Positions 13,466 through 51,036 of a DNA stretch of 64,000 nucleotides are shown here, in pieces. Location of the stretch: the NCBI GenBank assembly GCA_964345805.1, contig CAYFSK010000002.1:9606-73605 (forward strand). The letters run 5' to 3'. The position numbers and the translations under genes were made by a program. The DNA comes from an uncultured Mycoplasma sp. Its GTDB lineage: Bacteria > Bacillota_I > Bacilli_A > RF39 > UBA660. The first letter of the stretch is position 1. Each line of letters starts with the position of its first letter. Under the pieces are notes generated by a model. The model worked only from the letters and a program-made list of their open reading frames with translations. It was not told the DNA's origin and did not search any database.

Positions 13466-13492
13466 AATAAAAAAAGGTAATTGCTTACCTTT
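13466..13492 (-). terminator. intrinsic terminator after ftsZ
   Basis: AAAGGTAA-ttgc-TTACCTTT followed by a T-run on the minus strand. Confidence 0.6.
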
Positions 13493-14546
13493 AATCATTA
13501 TTTCTTAAAAAAGGAGGAATTTCATAATCATTATCTAAAAGTTCTGGTGTTTTTCTTTTAGGAAGTTCATCAGGTGCAAATAACGCCTCAGTAGCAACTT
13601 CTTTATCAAAGCCAGCTGCTATTACAGTAACAATTACTTCATCTTGAAGATTATCATTTTTAATAGCACCAAAGATAATATTTACTTCTCCTTGAGCTGC
13701 TTCTCTTACAGTTTCAACAGCGGTTTCTATTTCAAATAAAGCAAGATTGCTTCCTCCTGTTACGTTAACAATAGCATTTTTTGCTCCTTCAATAGTTTCT
13801 TCTAGTAAAGAATTTGATACAGCTTGTCTTGCAGCTTCAACAGCTCTATTTTCACCGGCAGCACAACCAATTCCAATAAGGGCAGTTCCACTTTTTTGCA
13901 TTACGGTATTTACGTCAGCAAAATCAAGGTTAATAACCCCTGGAACAGCTATTAAATCAGAAATAGATTGAACACCACGGTGTAAAACATTGTCTACTTC
14001 TTTAAATGCATCATCAAAGGAAGTTGTTTTATCAATAATATCTCTTAATCTATCATTAGGAATAACGATTAAAGAGTCAACATGCTTACGTAGTTCTTCA
14101 AGACCTATTAAAGCATTTTCCATTCTTCTTTTTCCCTCAAATCTAAATGGTTTAGTAACAATACCAACAGTAAGTGCCCCTTGTTCTTGAGCTATTTCTG
14201 CAACAATTGGTGCTGCTCCTGTACCAGTTCCACCACCAAGGCCACAAGCAACAAAAACCATATCAGCTCCATCTAAAGCTTCTTCAATTTCTTGTTTACT
14301 TTCAAGGGCAGATGCTCTTCCTACTTCAGGATTTGCTCCAGCACCTCTTCCTCCAGTAATACTTTTACCAATTTGAATTTTATGTTCTGCTTTAGAAGCA
14401 TCTAAAGCTTGCTTATCAGTGTTAACTACATAAAATTCTACGCTTTGTACTCCTTCTTCAATCATTCTATTAACGGCGTTGTTTCCACCACCACCGACAC
14501 CAACAACTTTAATCTTTGCAACTTGATCAATTACTAAATTTGTCAT
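13491..14546 (-). CDS. ftsZ: cell division GTPase FtsZ
   Basis: GGGTGTG tubulin signature and the NTDKQAL motif. ftsA is upstream. Confidence 0.95.
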
Positions 14547-14555
14547 TCTTCCTCC

Positions 14556-15800
14556 TTAATTATCAAAAAAATATCCAAATACTTTTCCTAATAATGAACT
14601 ATCTGATATATTTACTCTTTTATTCTTTCCACTAAATTCATTTTCTTCATCTTCTGAAAAGATGGAAAAATCTACATTTCTTAATTTTAATCTACTATTA
14701 TAATATTTAAGCATTCCAACTGCTACACTATATTTATTATACCTTGCACCAATTTGTTTAACCATACCTATTTGTGCAAGATTTCCAAAACAACCTTTAA
14801 GAAGAGTATCAAAGCCTTTTATCTTAGTAACTCCTCCTGTTACAATTATATAACTTATTTCTTTTTTTGTTAAGAGGCTAATTTGCTTTTTAACTAAATT
14901 AAGTATCTCATTTATTCTAGAAATTGCAACTGCTGATGCATCATACTGTGTTATTTTTATATCTTTTTCATTTATGTCTTTGATATTAACAAATTCTCCA
15001 GGACTTGCATTTTTAATATCACATACTACAAGCCTTTCTTTTAATTCTCCAGATGTTTTCTTATTTATTTTAAAAATATATGAAAGATCATTATCTATAT
15101 TTTGAGCACCAATATCAATAACCTCTGATGCTGTTAATATCCCTTTGTTAAAAATTGATACCTCTGTTTTAGAATGACCAATATTTACAATAGCCCCAAC
15201 AATCTTATCCATATCATCTGTTTTGAACTGATAAAAATCACATAAAGGGTTTACACATATATCAGTTACCTTTATTTTTAACTCTTCAAAAGCATTAACT
15301 ATATTTTCAACATTCTTTTTAGGAACTACTGCTATTACATCACTAACCGTTAATTTATTAGCAACCATATTTATTGGCGAAGAAACTTGCTTTTCATCAT
15401 TTAAAAAAAACTTTGTTGGCATAATACTTACAAGTTCTTTATTAGCATCTATCTTATTATAAATACTAGCTTGCATAGCTTTAACTAAATGTTTATGATT
15501 AATAACTTTATCTTCATTATTAATATTTACCGATCCACTTGAAATAAAACAACCAAGACCATAACTTGGTACGTTAACAAGAGTTTCTTTTAATGGTATA
15601 CCAAGCATTTCTTCGGTTCTTAAAAAGGCTTCTTTTAAGGCAGAACAAGCACTTTCAAAATTTACAATATAACCATTTTTAATTCCCTGTGATGGAATAT
15701 TTACACAAGATAAAATATTAAGCTTGTCCTTTTGGAATTCTCCAACTACAAGCTTAATAGAATTTGTTCCTATATCAAGACTAGAGATGATTCTTCTCAT
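14556..15800 (-). CDS. ftsA: cell division protein FtsA
   Basis: Actin-like ATPase N-terminus (SLDIGTNSIKLVVGE). 414 aa, directly upstream of ftsZ. Confidence 0.9.
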   Translation of the reverse strand: MRRIISSLDIGTNSIKLVVGEFQKDKLNILSCVNIPSQGIKNGYIVNFESACSALKEAFLRTEEMLGIPLKETLVNVPSYGLGCFISSGSVNINNEDKVINHKHLVKAMQASIYNKIDANKELVSIMPTKFFLNDEKQVSSPINMVANKLTVSDVIAVVPKKNVENIVNAFEELKIKVTDICVNPLCDFYQFKTDDMDKIVGAIVNIGHSKTEVSIFNKGILTASEVIDIGAQNIDNDLSYIFKINKKTSGELKERLVVCDIKNASPGEFVNIKDINEKDIKITQYDASAVAISRINEILNLVKKQISLLTKKEISYIIVTGGVTKIKGFDTLLKGCFGNLAQIGMVKQIGARYNKYSVAVGMLKYYNSRLKLRNVDFSIFSEDEENEFSGKNKRVNISDSSLLGKVFGYFFDN

Positions 15801-16425: not shown

Positions 16426-17091
16426 CTATCTATGTTTACTTCTAACTTTTTCTTCTACAAGTGCTATGTTATTTAAAATTTCTTGTTCTATTATATTTCT
16501 TGGTGTTAGTATCTGATAAAACAAATCTTTTGTATTCAAACAATATAAAACTTCTTGCATAAAGCCACTTATTCCCCCATATAAACCAGCAATTAACCTG
16601 TTAGGACATACTTTATCTTTTATAAAACTTCTTCTTCTTGTATCTAAGTGAGTTATAACATTATCAAGTGGTATATTCCATTTTACCATTAATGTTGCAA
16701 CCAGTTTAGCTTGATTATGAAGAGCATCATCATAAGATATGCCTTCACAAATTAATCTTTCTACACCAATGCTTTTAAAATTAAATGGGGTTCCCGTATG
16801 ACAAGCAACCTCATTATCAGGAATAAATCTATAAATCATTTTATCACCAACAAGATAATGATAACCAATTCTATCACCATTTAAGCCATCAACAAGTATT
16901 TTATTAGCATAATGAGTCATATCATATTCTTTTGGACTTTTACCAAGACCAAGAGATACTTCATGAATAACAATATATTCCGGCTTTTGCACTATTAGTT
17001 GTCTATTAGTACAGCCATATTTAGGTAATAATAAATCTTTAATTTCGCTATGCCAACTATTTTCAGTTGTATTTGTATAAAACTTTTTCAT
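16426..17091 (-). CDS. N-acetylmuramoyl-L-alanine amidase, Amidase_2/AmpD-like, cytoplasmic
   Basis: Amidase_2 motifs (IVIHEVS, HYLVG, ACHTG, K..CP) and no signal peptide. ATG at 17091 with AAAGGGGA SD is preferred over the longer TTG ORF. Confidence 0.7.
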   Translation of the reverse strand: MKKFYTNTTENSWHSEIKDLLLPKYGCTNRQLIVQKPEYIVIHEVSLGLGKSPKEYDMTHYANKILVDGLNGDRIGYHYLVGDKMIYRFIPDNEVACHTGTPFNFKSIGVERLICEGISYDDALHNQAKLVATLMVKWNIPLDNVITHLDTRRRSFIKDKVCPNRLIAGLYGGISGFMQEVLYCLNTKDLFYQILTPRNIIEQEILNNIALVEEKVRSKHR

Positions 17092-17156
17092 ATAAATCCC
17101 CTTTTTTGTAGCTATTATGCTAACACAAACCCCATAAAAAGTCAATTTAGACATTA

Positions 17157-17180
17157 AAAAAAGCAGTTATGCTGCTTTCT
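17157..17180 (-). terminator. intrinsic terminator after rplT
   Basis: AAAGCAG-ttatg-CTGCTTT overlapping the stop. A T-run follows on the minus strand. Confidence 0.5.
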
Positions 17181-17718
17181 TTGTAGTATTCTTTTTAGCT
17201 ACTGAAGTTTTCTTAGGTGCTGGTTTTTTTGTAACAGGTTTTTTAACTGCTTTTTTAACTTCTTCTTTCTTAACTTCAGTTTTTACTTCTTCTTTCTTAG
17301 TTTCTATTTTAATTTCTTCCTTCTTAGGTTCTTTCTTAACTTCAGCAGGAACAACTTTTTCACCATTTAATGCTTTTTTTGCAGTCTCAATTAATGCTAA
17401 AAATGCTTTTTCATCATTAATTGCAAGTTCTGATAACATCTTACGATTTATTTCAATACCTGCAAGTGCAAGACCATTAATAAATTTAGAATAACTAAGA
17501 TCATTGTTACGGCATGCTGCATTAATTCTTGTAATCCAAAGTTTTCTAAAATTTCTCTTATTTTGTTTACGATCTCTATATGCATATGCACCACTATGGA
17601 ATAATTGTTCTTGAGCTGTTTTATATAATCTATGTTTACTTCCAAAATAACCTTTAGCTTGTTTTAATACTTTTCTTCTTCTGTTTTTTGCAACAGGTCC
17701 ACGTTTAACTCTTGCCAT
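17167..17718 (-). CDS. rplT: 50S ribosomal protein L20 with a ~65-aa Lys/Glu/Pro-rich C-terminal extension
   Basis: Conserved L20 core ([25 protein letters not shown]...IETAKKAL). It is followed by a KKEEVK/KKPxxKK histone-H1-like tail. Confidence 0.9.
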
Positions 17719-18488: not shown

Positions 18489-18512
18489 AAGATGGATATT
18501 AATATCCATCTT
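18489..18512. repeat. 24-nt perfect palindrome in the infC leader
   Basis: AAGATGGATATTAATATCCATCTT. It contains an ATG that the ORF track took as start, located about 40 nt upstream of the likely AUA start. Confidence 0.6.
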
Positions 18513-18619
18513 AAAAAACTCAAATCAACCGCTCTTTGCGGTATTTTAGGTTCTTTACCCATTGATTACTACTCAATAAGGTGGATATTTAAAATCGCTT
18601 TCCTTCAAATAACGATTAT

Positions 18620-18648
18620 ATATTACACTAATTTTATCGTTTTGTCAA
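18620..18648 (-). promoter_or_regulatory. infC-rpmI-rplT operon promoter
   Basis: The minus strand reads TTGACA-17nt-TAATAT directly after the serpin stop. Confidence 0.6.
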
Positions 18649-18649
18649 A

Positions 18650-19744
18650 TTAATCTTTTTGGAATTTAGTAATGTTTTCAATTCTTACTGCAAGATATGG
18701 TTTATCTTTTTTAGCTTCTTTAATAAATAAAGTAAATGGTTTATCAATATTTAAGTTTTTAGGTTTATCAACTGGTTTTGATAAAGCCATTGTTTCTTTA
18801 ACATCAATAACGGCTTCACTTTTAACTTTACCACCTTTTTCATCAAGTTCAAAAATAATTGATTGAAGAGCAGCAGCAATAATATATTCCTTGTTTTCTA
18901 AACCATAAAATGGTTTATCTTGAAATTCTTTATATTCTCTTAAAATATTAAAATTGATATATGGCATTTTAAAGGTATCAAGTTCATCTAATGATTTATT
19001 ACCTTTATAGTGTTTACTATTTTCTTTAACATTTTGATAAGTCTTTTCAAAAGTTTTACCTTCATTATTAACAGTAATAATTAACTCATCATTTTGTTTA
19101 GTTTTTATTTTTATGGCAAAATCATTCTCATCATCATAATATAATATTTCAATATTACCTCTTGCCTCTTTATTATCATCTTTTAAACCAAAATATTTAA
19201 CATCTTCATATTTATTATCAAATTTATCGTTTTCCATAACAGAAAACTGTTTTAAATATTCAAACTCACGATAAAGCATTGTATAAAATAAATATCTTCG
19301 ATAATCAGTCCCATCTTTATCAAGAGCATCTTCACTCCAATCAATTAAATCAAGCACATCACTTGTTTGATCAAATTTATCTTTAATTGCTTTTTCTATT
19401 TTAGCTTTTAATTCCAAAGTTTTATAACCATAAGTTTTATAATAATATTCTTCAGAAATATCTTTTACAGAAAATGGTTCTTTATTTAAATTTTCTGCAT
19501 ATTTGATTTGGGGATTAAAAACAATATCTTTTTTAACTAAATCATTTTTTAAATCATTCCAAACTAATGAAAAAGTTCCACACCAAGCAGCATCACCAGA
19601 TATTTCATCAAGCACAGTTGGCACAACCTCAACTTCTTTAGTTAAAGTTTTTGTTGGCTTTTTCTTACCCATCGTTGCATAAATAATAGCTCCTGTAACA
19701 CATAACGCAAGTAGTACAATAATTATGATAACATTTTTCTTCAT
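18650..19744 (-). CDS. serpin family serine protease inhibitor with an N-terminal membrane anchor or signal
   Basis: Serpin hallmarks are present: hinge and reactive-centre loop (FELDEKGGKVKSEAVIDVKETMALSKP) and the NIDKPFTLFIKE motif. N-terminal hydrophobic segment. It has its own promoter and terminator. Confidence 0.7.
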   Translation of the reverse strand: MKKNVIIIIVLLALCVTGAIIYATMGKKKPTKTLTKEVEVVPTVLDEISGDAAWCGTFSLVWNDLKNDLVKKDIVFNPQIKYAENLNKEPFSVKDISEEYYYKTYGYKTLELKAKIEKAIKDKFDQTSDVLDLIDWSEDALDKDGTDYRRYLFYTMLYREFEYLKQFSVMENDKFDNKYEDVKYFGLKDDNKEARGNIEILYYDDENDFAIKIKTKQNDELIITVNNEGKTFEKTYQNVKENSKHYKGNKSLDELDTFKMPYINFNILREYKEFQDKPFYGLENKEYIIAAALQSIIFELDEKGGKVKSEAVIDVKETMALSKPVDKPKNLNIDKPFTLFIKEAKKDKPYLAVRIENITKFQKD

Positions 19745-19776
19745 AATTCACCTCTGATGTAATTATATCATATTAC

Positions 19777-19803
19777 TAAAAAAAAACACGTTATCTACGT
19801 GTT
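19777..19803 (-). terminator. intrinsic terminator after recA
   Basis: AACACGT-tatct-ACGTGTT followed by 9 T on the minus strand. Confidence 0.7.
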
Positions 19804-20854
19804 ATTTTTTATCTTTTTTTTCTTCTTTAGTAAAGTAATGATCTCTTATTTGTTTTTCAAGGTCTTCTTTTAATTTAAGGTCTGTTTTTAATAAAGCCCT
19901 AACATTTTCTTTACCTTGACCAATCTTTTCTTCTTTATAAGAATACCAAGCTCCACTTTTTTCAATTATATTTAATTCGGTCGCTAAATCAACAATTTCT
20001 CCCTCTTTTGATATACCTTCACCATATAATAAATCAACACATGCCGATTTAAATGGTGGTGCAACTTTATTTTTAACTACTTTAATATTCATCTTGTTAC
20101 CAAGAATTTGATCACTATTTTTAATCTGCTCACCTTTTCTTACATCAAGTCTAACACTTGAATAGAATTTAAGAGCTCTTCCTCCTGGTGTTGTTTCTGG
20201 ATTACCAAATAAAATACCTACTTTTTCTCTTAATTGATTAATAAAAATGGCTGTCGTTTTAGTTTTACTCATATTTCCAGATAATTTTCTTAAAGCTTGG
20301 CTCATTAATCTTGCTTGCAAGCCAATATGAGAATCGCCCATTTCCCCATCAATTTCTGCTTGAGGAACAAGTGCTGCAACCGAGTCAATTACAATTAAAT
20401 CAATCGCATTACTTTTTACAAGAGCATCACATATTTCAAGTGCTTGCTCTCCTGTATCGGGTTGAGACAATAAAAGTTCATTTATATCAACACCTAGTTT
20501 TGATGCATATACTGGATCAAGAGCATGCTCAGCATCAATAAAAGCTGCTCTTCCTTTATTTTTTTGTACCGCTGCTATAGCCTGAAGAGCAATAGTTGTT
20601 TTACCACTACTTTCAGGACCAAATATCTCAATAATTCTCCCCTTTGGATATCCTCCAACACCTAAGGCAATGTCTAAAGTAAGTGAACCACTACTAGTAG
20701 TTTCTATTTCTTTATGGCCTTCATCACCAAGTATCATTATTGCTTCTTTTCCAAATTGTTTTTGAATATCAGCGAGTACTTGATCTAGTGCTTTATCTTT
20801 ATTATTTTCGTTTTTTAAAGCCTTCATTATGTTCTCCTTTATTAACTCTGACAA
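19802..20854 (-). CDS. recA: recombinase RecA
   Basis: GPESSGKTT Walker A, and the [12 protein letters not shown] and IDSVAALVP motifs. Confidence 0.95.
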
Positions 20855-20858
20855 ATTA

Positions 20859-20887
20859 ATTGTATCTTATAAAAAATTAAAAGTCAA
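20859..20887 (-). promoter_or_regulatory. recA promoter
   Basis: The minus strand reads TTGACT-17nt-TACAAT, then AAGGAG SD. Confidence 0.6.
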
Positions 20888-20897
20888 TAACTTTTTA

Positions 20898-20911
20898 CGA
20901 ATATTTGTTCG
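20898..20911. promoter_or_regulatory. Cheo/LexA (SOS) box candidate upstream of recA
   Basis: The minus strand reads CGAACAAATATTCG against the CGAACRNRYGTTCG consensus, a 13/14 match. It lies just upstream of the recA -35. Confidence 0.5.
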
Positions 20912-20938
20912 CTATGGTAAAATTTAAAAAATATTCAC

Positions 20939-21829
20939 TTATTTATGAATATTTCTATGATTTATACTTATTAATTCCATATCAGTTGTTAAATGTTTTA
21001 TTCTTTCAATTATTCTACTTGCATTAATAAAATCAATACTTCCAGCCTCACCACTAAGTTTTTTTTCAAGTTCTTCGATATTTAAATTACTTGTAAAAAA
21101 AGTAGTTAAATTATTATTCATTCGATGCTGTAAAATAGTTCCTAAAATTTCATCTCTACCCCACTCAGTTACTTTTTCAGCACCAATATCATCTAAAACA
21201 AGAATTTCAACGTTACTTAAATAGGAAACTTTATTATCAACTTCTCTAAAATCATTTTTTAAGTTTCTTAGTAATTCTGGATAATAAATAAGTTCATATC
21301 TAACATCCTTTTTTTCTCTTAATTCATTAAGAAGTGCAGATAATAAAAACGTTTTACCACTTCCAAAACTTCCATGTAAATATAATCCTTTATTAATTTT
21401 ACTTGGATCATAATTATCATAAAATTCTTTTAACCATTTTATTAATTTAACTCTCTTTTTATCAGTTACATCTATATCTTTCATTCGTGCATTATCAAGA
21501 ATAGTAGATGCCTTTTTTTCTTTTATTTGTTCATCACGCAGTTTTAATTTCTTACAAGGTATATAATCAAAAGTTACTCTGCTTCCTTTTTTCTGTGGAT
21601 AATATACATATCCTTTAATGTTGTTTTTACAACTGCTAAGTCCTGGACAATTCTTACAATTATCTAGTTCTTGAAGTGTATCTTCTAAAGAAGTTATATT
21701 ATTATTTAATTCTTCTTCACTTAATTTAATTTTTTTTGAAAGATTTACTAACTTAACATTCATCATACTTGCTTTTTTCTTATTAACAACTTTAGTTGAA
21801 GTTTTAATGTTTTCACTTAATTTTTTCAT
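20939..21829 (-). CDS. dnaI: primosomal helicase loader DnaI (AAA+)
   Basis: C-terminal AAA+ region (LYLHGSFGSGKTFLLSALLNEL) and N-terminal Cys-rich zinc region. It follows the dnaB-like gene. Confidence 0.75.
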   Translation of the reverse strand: MKKLSENIKTSTKVVNKKKASMMNVKLVNLSKKIKLSEEELNNNITSLEDTLQELDNCKNCPGLSSCKNNIKGYVYYPQKKGSRVTFDYIPCKKLKLRDEQIKEKKASTILDNARMKDIDVTDKKRVKLIKWLKEFYDNYDPSKINKGLYLHGSFGSGKTFLLSALLNELREKKDVRYELIYYPELLRNLKNDFREVDNKVSYLSNVEILVLDDIGAEKVTEWGRDEILGTILQHRMNNNLTTFFTSNLNIEELEKKLSGEAGSIDFINASRIIERIKHLTTDMELISINHRNIHK

Positions 21830-23094
21830 TATTCAAACTCCTTAAGAAGTTCTTGAAGATCACTTTTTTCTTCTTCACTTACTTCTTCTTTAGCTATATC
21901 TTTTTTAAACCAAGTTGGAACAGCTGCTTCTTTTTTGGTTTTGCTTGAATTTCCTTTAGTTGTTCTTTTATTTTCTTTAGCAGCAAAACTCATTGCCTCA
22001 GCAGCTGTTTTTATTCCAGCTTTACGCCACTGGGAAGCAATAGTTTCTACATAAGCATTTGTTAGACGATTATTATTTTTACGCAAGCAATAATCAAGTA
22101 AAACATTTACAACTGCTGGTGTTAATTCTAGATCAAGAAGCAGACTTTCAACAAGCTTTAATTCTTTAGCAGTTGGATTAACACCTTTATTTTTAATTTT
22201 TAAAAAATCATATGGCGATGTATTTTCAAACATAGCAATAGCTTTTGATCTAATCGAAGTATCTCCTTTTGCCTTTTTTAAGTAATCTGGCTGAGATCTA
22301 TATACTATAGTTGGAAGACGTCCAGATGAAAGTTCATAATATTTTCTTGTAGTTTCCCTTAACAAGGTTTTATCTATCATACCAAATTCATTAATGCTTT
22401 TTCTAATAAATTCAATCATTTTTAAAGTATCTGCATTATATATAAATGATAAGTTATCAATTAATTCTTTAGTCTTTTTATTTAAAGCTTTTTCATTCAA
22501 TATATTTTTAGGAATACTTGCCATTATTAAATCATAATCAATTTGACTTTTTAAGATAACATCAGATGTTTCTCTTTCTTTTATATCATGAACTTCTTTA
22601 GTATTTTTAGGTTCATATACACTATCAAGCTGTTTAGTAATTTCTGTATATTCAGATAAGTCATATTTTTTCTTTTGATAAGATTTAATTAATTTATCAT
22701 ATTCTTCAGAACCCATATTATTATATAAAACAACACCAAAAATAGGATGGTTTAAAAATTCATTAGCTGATAGTGGTGAATAAAGTTCATATATATATAT
22801 TAAAACATTTTCTTCTTTAACATAAGTTTTTATAAGACCTACTGCCTCAAGAGATTCTCTTGCTTCTTTAATACTTTTACTAGAGCATTTTAAAACACTC
22901 ATTAAATGATGATGGAGAAGATATGATGTTTCATCCAAATCTTTTAAATCTTCCCAAAAAGTTAAATATAATAAAATAGCTATTGGACCAACAATAGGCA
23001 TATAAAAACTCATTAAGTTTTTCTTATCAATATCACTTAATATAGTCTTATTAATTACTTTATATCTATCTGCTGGTAAGATATTATAACTCAT
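21829..23094 (-). CDS. dnaB: replication initiation/membrane attachment protein (Firmicute DnaB, DnaD-domain family)
   Basis: 421 aa, immediately upstream of dnaI as in Bacillus dnaB-dnaI. The call is based on size, context and composition only. Confidence 0.5.
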   Translation of the reverse strand: MSYNILPADRYKVINKTILSDIDKKNLMSFYMPIVGPIAILLYLTFWEDLKDLDETSYLLHHHLMSVLKCSSKSIKEARESLEAVGLIKTYVKEENVLIYIYELYSPLSANEFLNHPIFGVVLYNNMGSEEYDKLIKSYQKKKYDLSEYTEITKQLDSVYEPKNTKEVHDIKERETSDVILKSQIDYDLIMASIPKNILNEKALNKKTKELIDNLSFIYNADTLKMIEFIRKSINEFGMIDKTLLRETTRKYYELSSGRLPTIVYRSQPDYLKKAKGDTSIRSKAIAMFENTSPYDFLKIKNKGVNPTAKELKLVESLLLDLELTPAVVNVLLDYCLRKNNNRLTNAYVETIASQWRKAGIKTAAEAMSFAAKENKRTTKGNSSKTKKEAAVPTWFKKDIAKEEVSEEEKSDLQELLKEFE

Positions 23095-50967: not shown

Positions 50968-51036
50968 ATTATTTTCCTTCGCCTCATTACTATAACATAA
51001 AATATTGCATAAAAAAAGATGCGATATAAGCACCTT

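What the first reader, a model, noticed from the sequence alone, without database searches (positions are those of the whole stretch)
18650..19744. Membrane-anchored serpin inserted between recA and the infC operon
A full-length serpin has the hinge, reactive-centre loop and shutter motifs (FELDEKGGKVKSEAVIDVKETMALSKP...NIDKPFTLFIKE) plus an N-terminal hydrophobic anchor.

It lies between the recA terminator and the infC promoter, with its own -10 element and terminator. thrS or other housekeeping genes usually sit in this position. Bacterial serpins are patchily distributed and often relate to host or proteolytic-environment adaptation.
Basis: partly seen in the sequence, partly recalled or inferred. 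Interest (0 to 1): 0.55.

Follow-up and report, generated by a model that had tools for sequence, protein, structure and literature searches.

The report
Membrane-anchored, highly divergent serpin-like protein
The gene between recA and infC encodes a cell-surface protein with a stripped-down, very divergent version of the serpin (protease-inhibitor) fold; it belongs to a large, unnamed family of uncultured gut bacteria, some of whose members are fused to a gene-regulating sigma factor.

Summary
The ORF is real: 18650-19744, minus strand, 364 aa, with the quoted motifs, an N-terminal membrane helix, and recA and infC as neighbours. It is not an ordinary full-length serpin. Pfam Serpin scores 20.3 bits against a cut-off of 27 and covers only the last 75 residues. 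NCBIfam gives nothing. PDB profile hits are all serpins but weak (E 0.014 or worse).

A confident AlphaFold model (pLDDT 87) matches only serpins in Foldseek (E 3.5e-9), but with TM-scores of only 0.36-0.47. hhalign to alpha-1-antitrypsin aligns helix F through strand s5B. The N-terminal ~100 residues do not align, and too little chain remains there for helices A/C/D/E and strand s2A.

The hinge is G-G-K-[VIL]-K-S-E-A, not the inhibitory consensus ExGTEAAAA, and is nearly invariant. The following loop is hypervariable and about 6-7 residues longer than in alpha-1-antitrypsin.

The family is large (1,833 clusters at 50% identity; at least 573 species genomes, all titled as gut or rumen MAGs in the 80 kept). 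None of 80 related loci shares the recA-infC position. Composition gives no sign of recent transfer. One big subfamily is ECF sigma factor-TM-serpin-like domain.

Best reading: a surface-tethered serpin-fold protease bait, acting as inhibitor or switch. Whether it inhibits is untested.

The parts
18650..19744 (-). Coding sequence of the serpin-like membrane protein (364 aa plus TAA stop)
   Evidence: ORF list. 953 homologues at E<=1e-3 and 1,833 clusters at 50% identity.
19676..19732 (-). N-terminal transmembrane anchor, residues 5-23 (VIIIIVLLALCVTGAIIYA); the cytoplasmic tail is only MKKN
   Evidence: Highest hydropathy window in the protein, 2.97. Translation confirmed. Modelled as a helix at residues 3-25. 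No conserved signal-peptidase or lipobox motif across the family alignment. The sigma-factor fusions require N-in/C-out topology for the equivalent helix.
19634..19675 (-). Variable Lys-rich juxtamembrane linker, residues 24-37
   Evidence: pLDDT below 50 at residues 26-30. Low occupancy and high entropy in the family alignment.
18653..19633 (-). Extracytoplasmic serpin-like domain, residues 38-364. Residues ~104-361 align to alpha-1-antitrypsin from helix F to strand s5B. Residues 38-100 are a condensed N-terminal part with family-specific motifs (WCGTF..WND, NLNK).
   Evidence: AlphaFold pLDDT 87.1, pTM 0.82. Foldseek hits are all serpins: PDB E 3.5e-9 with TM 0.36-0.47, and 28 viral serpins in BFVD. 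hhalign E 5.9e-5 over 221 columns. The N-terminus does not align.
18812..18844 (-). Hinge-equivalent segment, residues 301-311 (DEKGGKVKSEA). Counting G304 as P15, this spans P18 to P8.
   Evidence: Translation. One of the two most conserved 10-residue blocks in the family: G304 96%, S309 91%, E310 93%, A311 87%. Family logo G-G-K-[VIL]-K-S-E-A over 239 sequences. Residues 304-309 are modelled as a beta-strand following s5A.
18761..18811 (-). Hypervariable exposed loop, residues 312-328 (VIDVKETMALSKPVDKP), the counterpart of the distal reactive-centre loop
   Evidence: Translation. pLDDT below 50 at 310-325. Column entropy 3-3.8 bits with indels. The distance from P15 to the s1C anchor is 25 residues here and 17-29 (mode 24) in the family, against 18 in alpha-1-antitrypsin.
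18680..18760 (-). Conserved C-terminal strands, residues 329-355 (s1C, s4B, s5B equivalents; KNLNIDKPFTLFIKE...PYLAV)
   Evidence: This region, together with s5A and the hinge, is the only part that hits Pfam Serpin: residues 279-354 against profile 295-366. The same region hits PDB serpins. F337 and F340 are 91% conserved, P349 and Y350 99%.
19762..19770 (-). Extended -10 promoter element TGATATAAT, with no recognisable -35
   Evidence: Read directly from the sequence. Not listed by the consensus scan, which requires a -35 hexamer.
19748..19755 (-). Shine-Dalgarno sequence AGAGGTGA, 3 nt before the ATG
   Evidence: Read directly from the sequence.
19785..19803 (-). recA intrinsic terminator-like hairpin followed by a T9 run; it bounds the gene upstream
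   Evidence: Terminator scan; sequence.
18620..18648 (-). infC promoter-like site (TTGACA-17-TAATAT) starting one base after the stop codon; it bounds the gene downstream
   Evidence: Promoter scan, 10 of 12 matches.

Best explanation
The gene encodes a type II (N-in/C-out) single-pass membrane protein. It displays a ~325-residue, highly divergent and N-terminally minimised serpin-fold domain on the cell surface of an uncultured low-GC gut bacterium of the Bacilli ('Mollicutes'/'Tenericutes'/CAG names in the record titles).

The domain keeps the serpin C-terminal two-thirds, from helix F and strand s3A through s5A, a hinge, an exposed loop, and s1C, s4B and s5B. The loop between the hinge and s1C (res 312-328) is flexible, hypervariable and longer than in classical serpins.

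I propose it is offered as bait to extracellular proteases of the gut, whether host digestive or microbial. Docking or cleavage would drive the amphipathic hinge, already predicted to be partly in sheet A, further into the sheet. That would either trap the protease at the membrane (inhibition) or flip the domain into a relaxed state (a protease-triggered switch).

Shown here: the ORF, the anchor, serpin-fold homology, the position, variability and length of the loop, the conserved non-canonical hinge, the size and habitat of the family, and the sigma-factor fusions. Inferred: the surface orientation, protease interaction, loop insertion on cleavage, and any inhibition.
For: Serpin homology:
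- Pfam Serpin is the only family hit for the window protein, and it is hit by 10 of 33 and 20 of 85 family members, best E 3.5e-7.
- All 46 weak PDB profile hits are serpins.
- The AlphaFold model (pLDDT 87.1) hits 343 PDB chains at E<=1e-3, the top 50 all serpins, and only serpins in BFVD at E<=1e-3.

Loop:
- pLDDT below 50 at residues 310-325.
- Entropy 3-3.8 bits with indels, flanked by two of the most conserved segments.

Capacity to insert:
- P15 Gly is 96% conserved.
- Even positions P14-P6 are small or hydrophobic (G, V/I/L, S, A, I/V/M), while P13, P11, P9 and P5 are charged.
- The window model has a short hinge strand and resembles native alpha-1-antitrypsin and antithrombin 'I' chains.
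- The sigma-fusion model has a 12-residue strand and resembles cleaved or latent serpins and antithrombin 'L' chains. The scaffold is therefore modelled in both states.

Surface location:
- The fusions place an ECF sigma domain before the equivalent TM helix.

Habitat:
- All 80 kept genome loci (of at least 573 matches) are titled as gut or rumen MAGs.

Precedent:
- Gut and oral bacterial serpins act on host proteases, and membrane-anchored prokaryotic serpins are known (PMC8233489).
Against: - The hinge departs from the inhibitory consensus ExGTEAAAA at P14-P9 (G-K-V-K-S-E). Bulky or charged residues there mark non-inhibitory serpins such as ovalbumin and maspin (my knowledge of the serpin literature).
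- P17 Glu is only 36% conserved in the wider family.
- The N-terminal third of the fold, which contributes to metastability in classical serpins, is missing or condensed.
- TM-scores are below 0.5.
- AlphaFold may be showing a constitutive strand rather than a mobile hinge.
- There is no conserved protease gene or any other conserved neighbour.
- The nominal P1 residue is not conserved.
- There is no experimental evidence of any kind.
Confidence: 0.45

Rival explanations
1. A constitutively loop-inserted, stable, non-inhibitory serpin-fold ectodomain. The hinge-equivalent G-G-K-[VIL]-K-S-E-A-x-[IVM] is a permanent strand of sheet A, perhaps replacing the lost s2A. The variable loop is an ordinary surface loop. 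The domain serves as a ligand-binding, sensor or scaffold module unrelated to proteases.
For: - The hinge is amphipathic, rich in beta-branched residues and nearly invariant, as expected of a structural strand.
- Both AlphaFold models put it in a strand next to s5A: 304-309 in the window protein and 486-497 in the fusion.
- The fusion model's nearest structures are almost all cleaved or latent serpins.
- For the window model, cleaved CBG and vaspin give lower rmsd (5.8-6.0 Å) than native alpha-1-antitrypsin (7.2-9.3 Å).
- The hinge violates the inhibitory consensus.
- The domain is used as the outer domain of membrane-tethered ECF sigma factors, a position where sensor domains normally sit.
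Against: - Only 6 residues are modelled as inserted in the window protein, and 310-325 is disordered.
- P15 Gly and the long hypervariable loop are retained, which a purely structural strand-plus-loop does not require.
- AlphaFold cannot distinguish a ground state from an end state.
- Known non-inhibitory serpins with comparably bulky or charged hinges, such as ovalbumin and maspin, keep the loop out of the sheet rather than inserted (my knowledge).
Confidence: 0.3
2. One reading: a canonical, full-length inhibitory serpin of the miropin/siropin kind, acquired horizontally and inserted as a separate unit between recA and infC.
For: - The best PDB sequence hit is 5ncs_A, a bacterial serpin.
- E-K-G at P17-P15 and the KPF motif are present.
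- The gene has its own -10 and follows the recA terminator.
- The position is not shared by 80 related loci.
Against: - It scores below the Pfam cut-off, and only the C-terminal 75 residues match.
- E-values to miropin are 0.014-0.42.
- The N-terminal third is absent.
- The hinge is non-consensus.
- Composition and codon usage are typical of the window.
- The family is conserved across at least 573 species genomes, which fits vertical inheritance with rearrangement.
Confidence: 0.15
3. Not a serpin relative at all: the similarity is a chance or convergent resemblance in a beta-rich fold.
For: Sequence E-values are marginal (0.014-0.42 against PDB; Pfam below cut-off) and TM-scores are below 0.5.
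Against: - Independent methods all point only to serpins, with co-linear alignment over more than 220 residues.
- In BFVD, serpin hits run from 2e-8 to 3.6e-3 and the next hit is at 0.11.
- A second, independently modelled subfamily gives the same result.
Confidence: 0.03

Closest known systems
Bacterial serpins of groups T/U (miropin of Tannerella forsythia, siropins of Eubacterium siraeum, Bifidobacterium longum serpin, tengpin, thermopin), as classified in PMC8233489
   Same: Prokaryotic, host-associated (gut or oral) and extracytoplasmic. The C-terminal strands and the hinge-loop position are homologous. 5ncs_A (deposited as 'Serpin'; miropin, from my memory of the entry) is among the best PDB sequence hits.
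   Different: Those proteins are canonical, with E-values below 1e-10 to other serpins according to PMC8233489, a full set of helices and the ExGTEAAAA hinge. This protein fails the Pfam cut-off, lacks a detectable N-terminal third and has a G-G-K-V-K-S-E-A hinge. It is anchored by an uncleaved TM helix rather than a lipid or signal peptide. Its family also occurs fused to ECF sigma factors.
Minimal viral serpins (poxvirus CrmA/SPI family and giant-virus serpins)
   Same: Reduced serpin scaffolds. These are among the best structural matches in BFVD, for example Hyperionvirus serpin A0A3G5A9H6 (333 aa, TMq 0.49) and Eptesipox virus Serpin 2 (320 aa, TMq 0.48). From my knowledge, CrmA lacks helix D and parts of helices A and E.
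   Different: Viral serpins are still recognised by the Serpin profile and keep the Ala-rich hinge (my knowledge). They are soluble and intracellular or secreted, not TM-anchored.
Non-inhibitory serpins with divergent hinges (ovalbumin, maspin, CBG/TBG hormone carriers)
   Same: Bulky or charged residues in P14-P9. From my knowledge, maspin also has G-G at P15-P14. CBG shows that a serpin can work as a protease-triggered release switch, and cleaved CBG is the top structural neighbour of the fusion model.
   Different: These are eukaryotic, full-length and soluble, with no sequence relationship beyond the fold.
Single-pass anti-sigma factors and ECF sigma factors with C-terminal extensions (PMC7826278)
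   Same: Part of the family has the architecture ECF sigma-TM-extracytoplasmic domain, or lies at position +1 or +2 after an ECF-like sigma gene.
   Different: The window protein has a 4-residue cytoplasmic tail, no anti-sigma domain and no sigma gene nearby. A serpin-like outer domain is not mentioned in the ECF classification paper.

Membership tests
Serpin family (Pfam PF00079) | Whole-protein score at or above the curated gathering cut-off of the Serpin profile, over most of its 370 positions | tested here: not met
   20.3 bits against a cut-off of 27, E 3.7e-4, covering only residues 279-354 against profile positions 295-366. Only 10 of 33 and 20 of 85 relatives reach E<=0.01. NCBIfam gives no hit.
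Serpin superfamily (fold level) | Serpin topology: sheets A, B and C with s5A-hinge-loop-s1C-s4B-s5B at the C-terminus and helix F before s3A | tested here: met
   The AlphaFold model (pLDDT 87.1) finds only serpins: 343 PDB chains at E<=1e-3 with probability 1.00 and 28 in BFVD. hhalign is co-linear from helix F to s5B. A second subfamily model gives the same result.
Serpin superfamily (fold level) | The complete scaffold of 8-9 helices (A-I) and a five-stranded sheet A including s2A | tested here: inconclusive
Inhibitory serpins | Hinge consensus P17-P9 ExGTEAAAA (x = E/K/R), as given in PMC8233489 | tested here: not met
   The window protein has E-K-G-G-K-V-K-S-E, so only P17-P15 agree. The family logo is G-G-K-[VIL]-K-S-E-A. 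P17 Glu is 36% conserved.
Inhibitory serpins | An exposed, untruncated reactive-centre loop of sufficient length between s5A and s1C | tested here: met
   Residues 312-328 are disordered in the model and hypervariable. The P15-to-s1C distance is 25 residues against 18 in alpha-1-antitrypsin.
Inhibitory serpins | Stressed-to-relaxed transition and a covalent acyl-enzyme complex with a target protease | not testable with these tools
   This needs biochemistry. The two AlphaFold models resemble different states, which is suggestive only.
Serpin PROSITE signature PS00284 (pattern recalled from memory) | [LIVMFY]-{G}-[LIVMFYAC]-[DNQ]-[RKHQS]-[PST]-F-[LIVMFY]-[LIVMFYC]-x-[LIVMFAH] at s4B | tested here: not met
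   The regex finds no match. LNIDKPFTLFI fails at position 8, where it has Thr. The pattern itself is from memory.
Anti-sigma factor / membrane-tethered ECF sigma module | A cytoplasmic anti-sigma or sigma domain N-terminal to the TM helix, or an adjacent ECF sigma gene | tested here: not met
   The window protein has only MKKN before the TM helix. A sigma HMM finds no sigma gene among the 65 ORFs of the window. The feature is met by relatives P0169, P0183, P0227 and P0235.

The most novel reading that the evidence does not exclude
The serpin-like ectodomain is a protease-sensing switch. In the ECF sigma-TM-serpin-like fusions, and in operons where the gene follows an ECF sigma gene, cleavage or engagement of the bait loop by an extracellular protease changes the domain's conformation. 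That change leads to release or activation of the tethered sigma factor, giving these reduced-genome gut bacteria a direct transcriptional response to proteolytic attack. The stand-alone copy in this window would be the same module working as a surface inhibitor, decoy or co-sensor. This would be a serpin conformational change used for bacterial transmembrane signalling, which I did not find described.
Probability: 0.15. Interest if true: 0.85.

Novelty: new variant of a known kind. Interest (0 to 1): 0.6.

Why it matters
The role of serpins in prokaryotes is called 'enigmatic' in the most recent superfamily phylogeny (PMC8233489). That survey relied on sequences recognisable as serpins.

This family is large: 1,833 clusters at 50% identity and at least 573 species genomes. 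It is confined, among the genomes seen here, to uncultured gut and rumen Firmicutes (titled Bacilli, Clostridia, Mollicutes or Tenericutes). It is essentially invisible to Pfam and NCBIfam, and no source gives the stand-alone members a name.

If it is functional, three things follow:
- It extends the serpin fold to a smaller, membrane-tethered form with a different conserved hinge. That bears on which parts of the scaffold are really needed for loop insertion.
- It points to a surface defence or sensing system against gut proteases in abundant but uncultured commensals.
- Through the sigma-factor fusions, it suggests a testable new input domain for ECF signalling.

Tried and rejected
- **Conserved operon partner.** I clustered the ORFs of 80 related loci. 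The largest neighbour cluster occurs in 13 of 80 loci (collagen-like, signal peptidase I, rplS, FtsE-like, M18 aminopeptidase and others), so there is no conserved partner and no protease.
- **Conserved recA-infC synteny.** 0 of 80 loci share it. Only the 99%-identical copy on a Logan contig does.
- **Horizontal-transfer signal.** GC, GC3 and codon-usage distance are all within one sd of the window's genes. Rejected.
- **Paralogues in the window.** None.
- **Anti-phage defence.** No PADLOC match.
- **Names from public sources.** None for 10 clusters.
- **Literature.** Searches for serpin with transmembrane, Mollicutes, RF39 or anti-sigma terms found nothing on this family.
- **Forcing hhalign into the N-terminus.** This gave only zero-confidence columns.
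- **L20 leader upstream of infC.** No Rfam match at gathering threshold or at E<=1.
- **Lipoprotein anchor.** Rejected: the Cys in LALC has Leu at -1 and is not conserved in the family.
- **Defining P1 by alignment.** Not possible. hhalign and simple counting from P15 disagree, and the nominal P1 (T318) is variable.
Full report
**Observation**

The window holds an ORF at 18650-19744 on the minus strand, 364 aa long. Residues 5-23 (VIIIIVLLALCVTGAIIYA) form the only strongly hydrophobic segment. AlphaFold models them as a helix.

The upstream gene is recA (TIGR02012, 538 bits). The downstream genes are infC (TIGR00168, 185 bits), rpmI and rplT. Further upstream lie dnaI and a Bacillus-type dnaB. 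The locus therefore looks like the Bacillus dnaB-dnaI-thrS-infC arrangement (my knowledge), with recA plus this gene where thrS would be.

A recA terminator-like hairpin (19803-19785) is followed by an extended -10, TGATATAAT (19770-19762). A Shine-Dalgarno sequence, AGAGGTGA, and the ATG come next. There is no terminator directly after the gene. An infC promoter-like TTGACA-17-TAATAT begins one base after the stop codon. The only downstream hairpin (18542-18528) lies in the infC leader.

**Is it a serpin?**

Sequence evidence is consistent but weak.
- Pfam Serpin scores 20.3 bits, below the cut-off of 27, and matches only residues 279-354 to profile positions 295-366.
- NCBIfam gives nothing.
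- phmmer against PDB gives 5ncs_A at E 0.42.
- Family profiles give E 0.2 and, with a broader alignment, 46 hits at E 0.014-0.82. All are serpins and all match at the C-terminus.
- hhalign of the family profile against alpha-1-antitrypsin gives probability 65% and E 5.9e-5 over 221 columns. It is co-linear from s1A and helix F through s3A, s4C, s3C, s2B, s3B, s2C, s6A, s5A, hinge, s1C, s4B and s5B.
- Extending that alignment into the first ~100 residues yields only zero-confidence columns.

Structural evidence is stronger.
- An AlphaFold2 model built on 33 family sequences has pLDDT 87.1 and pTM 0.82.
- Foldseek finds 343 PDB chains at E<=1e-3. The top 50 are all serpins, best 3.5e-9 at probability 1.00.
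- In BFVD, the 28 hits at E<=1e-3 are all serpins, and scores fall to 0.11 once the serpin hits end.
- TM-scores are only 0.30-0.50 and identity 8-15%.

From the DSSP string and the hhalign mapping, the domain starts at about residue 38. There is no room for helix A. A strand and helix (52-55, 57-70) look like s6B and helix B. Only 30 residues with one short helix then precede the strand that leads into helix F (101-107, 110-124). In alpha-1-antitrypsin about 72 residues lie there, carrying helices C, D and E and strand s2A.

**Hinge and loop**

The published inhibitory consensus for P17-P9 is ExGTEAAAA (PMC8233489). Taking G304 as P15, the window protein reads E-K-G-G-K-V-K-S-E.

Across 239 family sequences the logo is G-G-K-[VIL]-K-S-E-A-[GA]-[IVM]-D. 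In an 85-member alignment at 27-45% identity to the window protein, this is one of the two most conserved 10-residue blocks. G304 is 96% conserved, S309 91%, E310 93% and A311 87%, while P17 Glu is only 36%.

The stretch that follows (312-328) is the most variable part of the ectodomain, at 3-3.8 bits with indels. It is disordered in the model, with pLDDT below 50 at 310-325. It is followed by conserved R/K329, F/L331, F337, F340, P349 and Y350. The distance from P15 to the s1C anchor is 25 residues here and 17-29 (mode 24) in the family. It is 18 in alpha-1-antitrypsin. The hinge, however, is not the inhibitory one.

The alternation in the hinge is that of a beta-strand: small or hydrophobic residues at even positions and charged residues at P13, P11, P9 and P5. 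AlphaFold places 304-309 in a strand after s5A.

I modelled a second subfamily, the sigma fusion P0169 (pLDDT 69.8 overall, ectodomain 70-88). There a 12-residue strand follows s5A. Its nearest PDB structures are almost exclusively cleaved or latent serpins: cleaved CBG, vaspin and PAI-1, latent conserpin, C1-inhibitor and tengpin, and 17 antithrombin 'L' chains. The window model instead picks native alpha-1-antitrypsin and the 'I' chains of the same antithrombin crystals, plus some cleaved forms. That I and L denote the inhibitory and latent chains is from my knowledge of those entries.

There are two readings. Either the scaffold can occupy both states, or the hinge is a permanent strand. 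The tools cannot decide between them.

**Family and context**

- The protein has 953 homologues at E<=1e-3 in the 90%-clustered database. One is 99% identical and the rest are 55% identical or less. Nearly all lack any Pfam annotation and none has a name.
- It has 1,833 clusters at 50% identity with E<=1e-3, of which 891 reach E<=1e-10.
- At least 573 species-representative genomes encode it. All 80 kept loci are titled as gut or rumen MAGs, as Bacilli, Mollicutes, Tenericutes, Clostridium sp. CAG or Clostridia.
- None of the 80 loci has recA or infC within 4 kb, and there is no conserved neighbour. Only the 99%-identical copy shares the recA-infC position.
- The gene's GC (24.8% against 27.5 +/- 3.2), GC3 (11.0% against 12.1 +/- 2.5) and codon-usage distance (0.185 against 0.176 +/- 0.045) are typical of the window.

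This is a lineage-wide, stand-alone gene that moves around the chromosome. It is not a recently imported island.

**Sigma-factor link (found in passing)**

Several family members have the architecture ECF sigma (regions 2 and 4; TIGR02937 at 84 bits against a cut-off of 42.9), then a TM helix, then the serpin-like domain. Examples are P0169, P0183, P0227 and P0235.

- A search with P0169 found 909 relatives at E<=1e-10.
- About 115 of the best 120 are full-length fusions at 57-100% identity.
- P0169 occurs on 10 contigs read from the collection, with three distinct places shown, each from a different sample.

The architecture is therefore real and common.

In 13 of 80 stand-alone loci an ECF-like sigma gene lies within about 3 kb upstream on the same strand. 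In five it is the directly preceding ORF (a truncated sigma ORF in one), and in five a small single-pass membrane protein lies between the two genes. The ECF classification paper does not mention serpins.

The fusions also fix the topology: the sigma domain must be cytoplasmic, so the serpin-like domain is outside. The window protein has only MKKN before its TM helix, and the window holds no sigma gene. It cannot itself be an anti-sigma factor.

**Mechanism**

I commit to a surface-tethered serpin-fold protease bait (confidence 0.45). The hypervariable loop is presented to extracellular proteases. Engagement or cleavage drives the amphipathic hinge into sheet A. The result is either protease trapping or a conformational switch.

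Rivals:
- A constitutively loop-inserted, non-inhibitory binding or sensor domain (0.30). It is favoured by the hinge chemistry and the AlphaFold strand.
It is disfavoured by the profile, hinge, N-terminus and composition results.
- Chance resemblance (0.03).

The remaining probability is unassigned.

**Comparison with known systems and novelty**

The closest known systems are these:
- bacterial group T/U serpins such as miropin and the siropins, which are canonical with a consensus hinge and a lipid or signal-peptide anchor;
- minimal viral serpins, which are reduced scaffolds still recognised by the Serpin profile;
- non-inhibitory serpins with bulky hinges, such as ovalbumin, maspin and CBG.

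The protein meets the fold-level definition. It fails the Pfam threshold, the inhibitory hinge consensus and the PROSITE signature (recalled from memory).

I class it as a new variant of a known kind: a minimised, TM-anchored serpin-like family with its own conserved hinge, recruited in part to ECF sigma factors. Interest is 0.6. The family behind it is larger, stranger and less 'serpin' than proposed, but function remains untested.

Noticed in passing
Relatives P0169, P0183, P0227, P0235, P0213 (partial); loci L081-L083: A large subfamily consists of single polypeptides with an ECF sigma factor (regions 2 and 4), a TM helix and the serpin-like ectodomain, about 540 aa in all. About 115 of the best 120 hits to P0169 are full-length fusions. 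NCBI names them only 'sigma-70 family RNA polymerase sigma factor' or 'hypothetical protein'.
   Followed up: partly
L032, L034, L039, L044, L047, L054, L062, L064, L065, L066, L078, L079, L080 (upstream of the match at ~4001): In 13 of 80 related loci an ECF-like sigma gene lies within about 3 kb upstream on the same strand as the stand-alone serpin-like gene. In five loci a ~220-aa single-pass membrane protein (cluster c16, a possible anti-sigma factor) sits between the two. In L034 the sigma ORF overlaps the start of the serpin-like ORF by a few bases.
   Followed up: partly
Relatives P0226 (985 aa), P0201 (788 aa), P0162 (498 aa), P0122 (554 aa): Other fusions of the serpin-like domain exist. 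There are C-terminal ankyrin repeats (P0226), a Sel1 repeat N-terminal to the domain (P0201) and an N-terminal DUF4362 (P0162). P0122 has a weak, sub-threshold dockerin-like N-terminus.
   Followed up: no
window 17167-17718 (-): Ribosomal protein L20 (rplT) is 183 aa. Pfam L20 covers residues 3-109, and a ~74-residue Lys/Glu/Val-rich tail follows (…[43 protein letters not shown]…). That is unusual for L20.
   Followed up: no
window 18510-18649 (-): The infC leader (~110 nt after a TTGACA-17-TAATAT promoter-like site) folds better than shuffles (z -2.76). It ends in a GC hairpin (18542-18528) followed by a T-rich run, which resembles an attenuator. It matches no Rfam family, including the L20 leader, even at E<=1.
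   Followed up: partly
window 19802-23094 (-): The gene order is dnaB(Bacillus-type)-dnaI-recA-[serpin-like]-infC-rpmI-rplT. recA and the serpin-like gene occupy the place where thrS lies in Bacillus subtilis (my knowledge). No thrS was identified in this stretch.
   Followed up: no
window ~51000-62000 (-): This looks like a possible Tad/Flp-type pilus or secretion cluster. It has a T2SSE-family ATPase (55650-56759, 93 bits) and a weak RcpC/CpaB-like protein (56781-57545). Two tandem small pilin-like ORFs begin MK(Q/E)ATGELS… (53406-53890). Several multi-TM or unknown ORFs and a 1,071-aa secreted protein with no Pfam hit are also present.
   Followed up: partly
window 16426-17154 (-): An N-acetylmuramoyl-L-alanine amidase (Amidase_2, 59 bits) lies near ORFs whose N-terminal sequences look like ftsA and ftsZ (14556-15800 and 13491-14546; not confirmed by any search). 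This suggests the organism makes peptidoglycan, despite the 'Mollicutes'/'Tenericutes' labels on related MAGs. The window uses TGA as a stop codon (6 of 48 long ORFs), so it has the standard code.
   Followed up: no
L060 and L065: Two of the 80 related loci carry two copies of the serpin-like gene close together: adjacent in L060 and separated by one ORF in L065.
   Followed up: no
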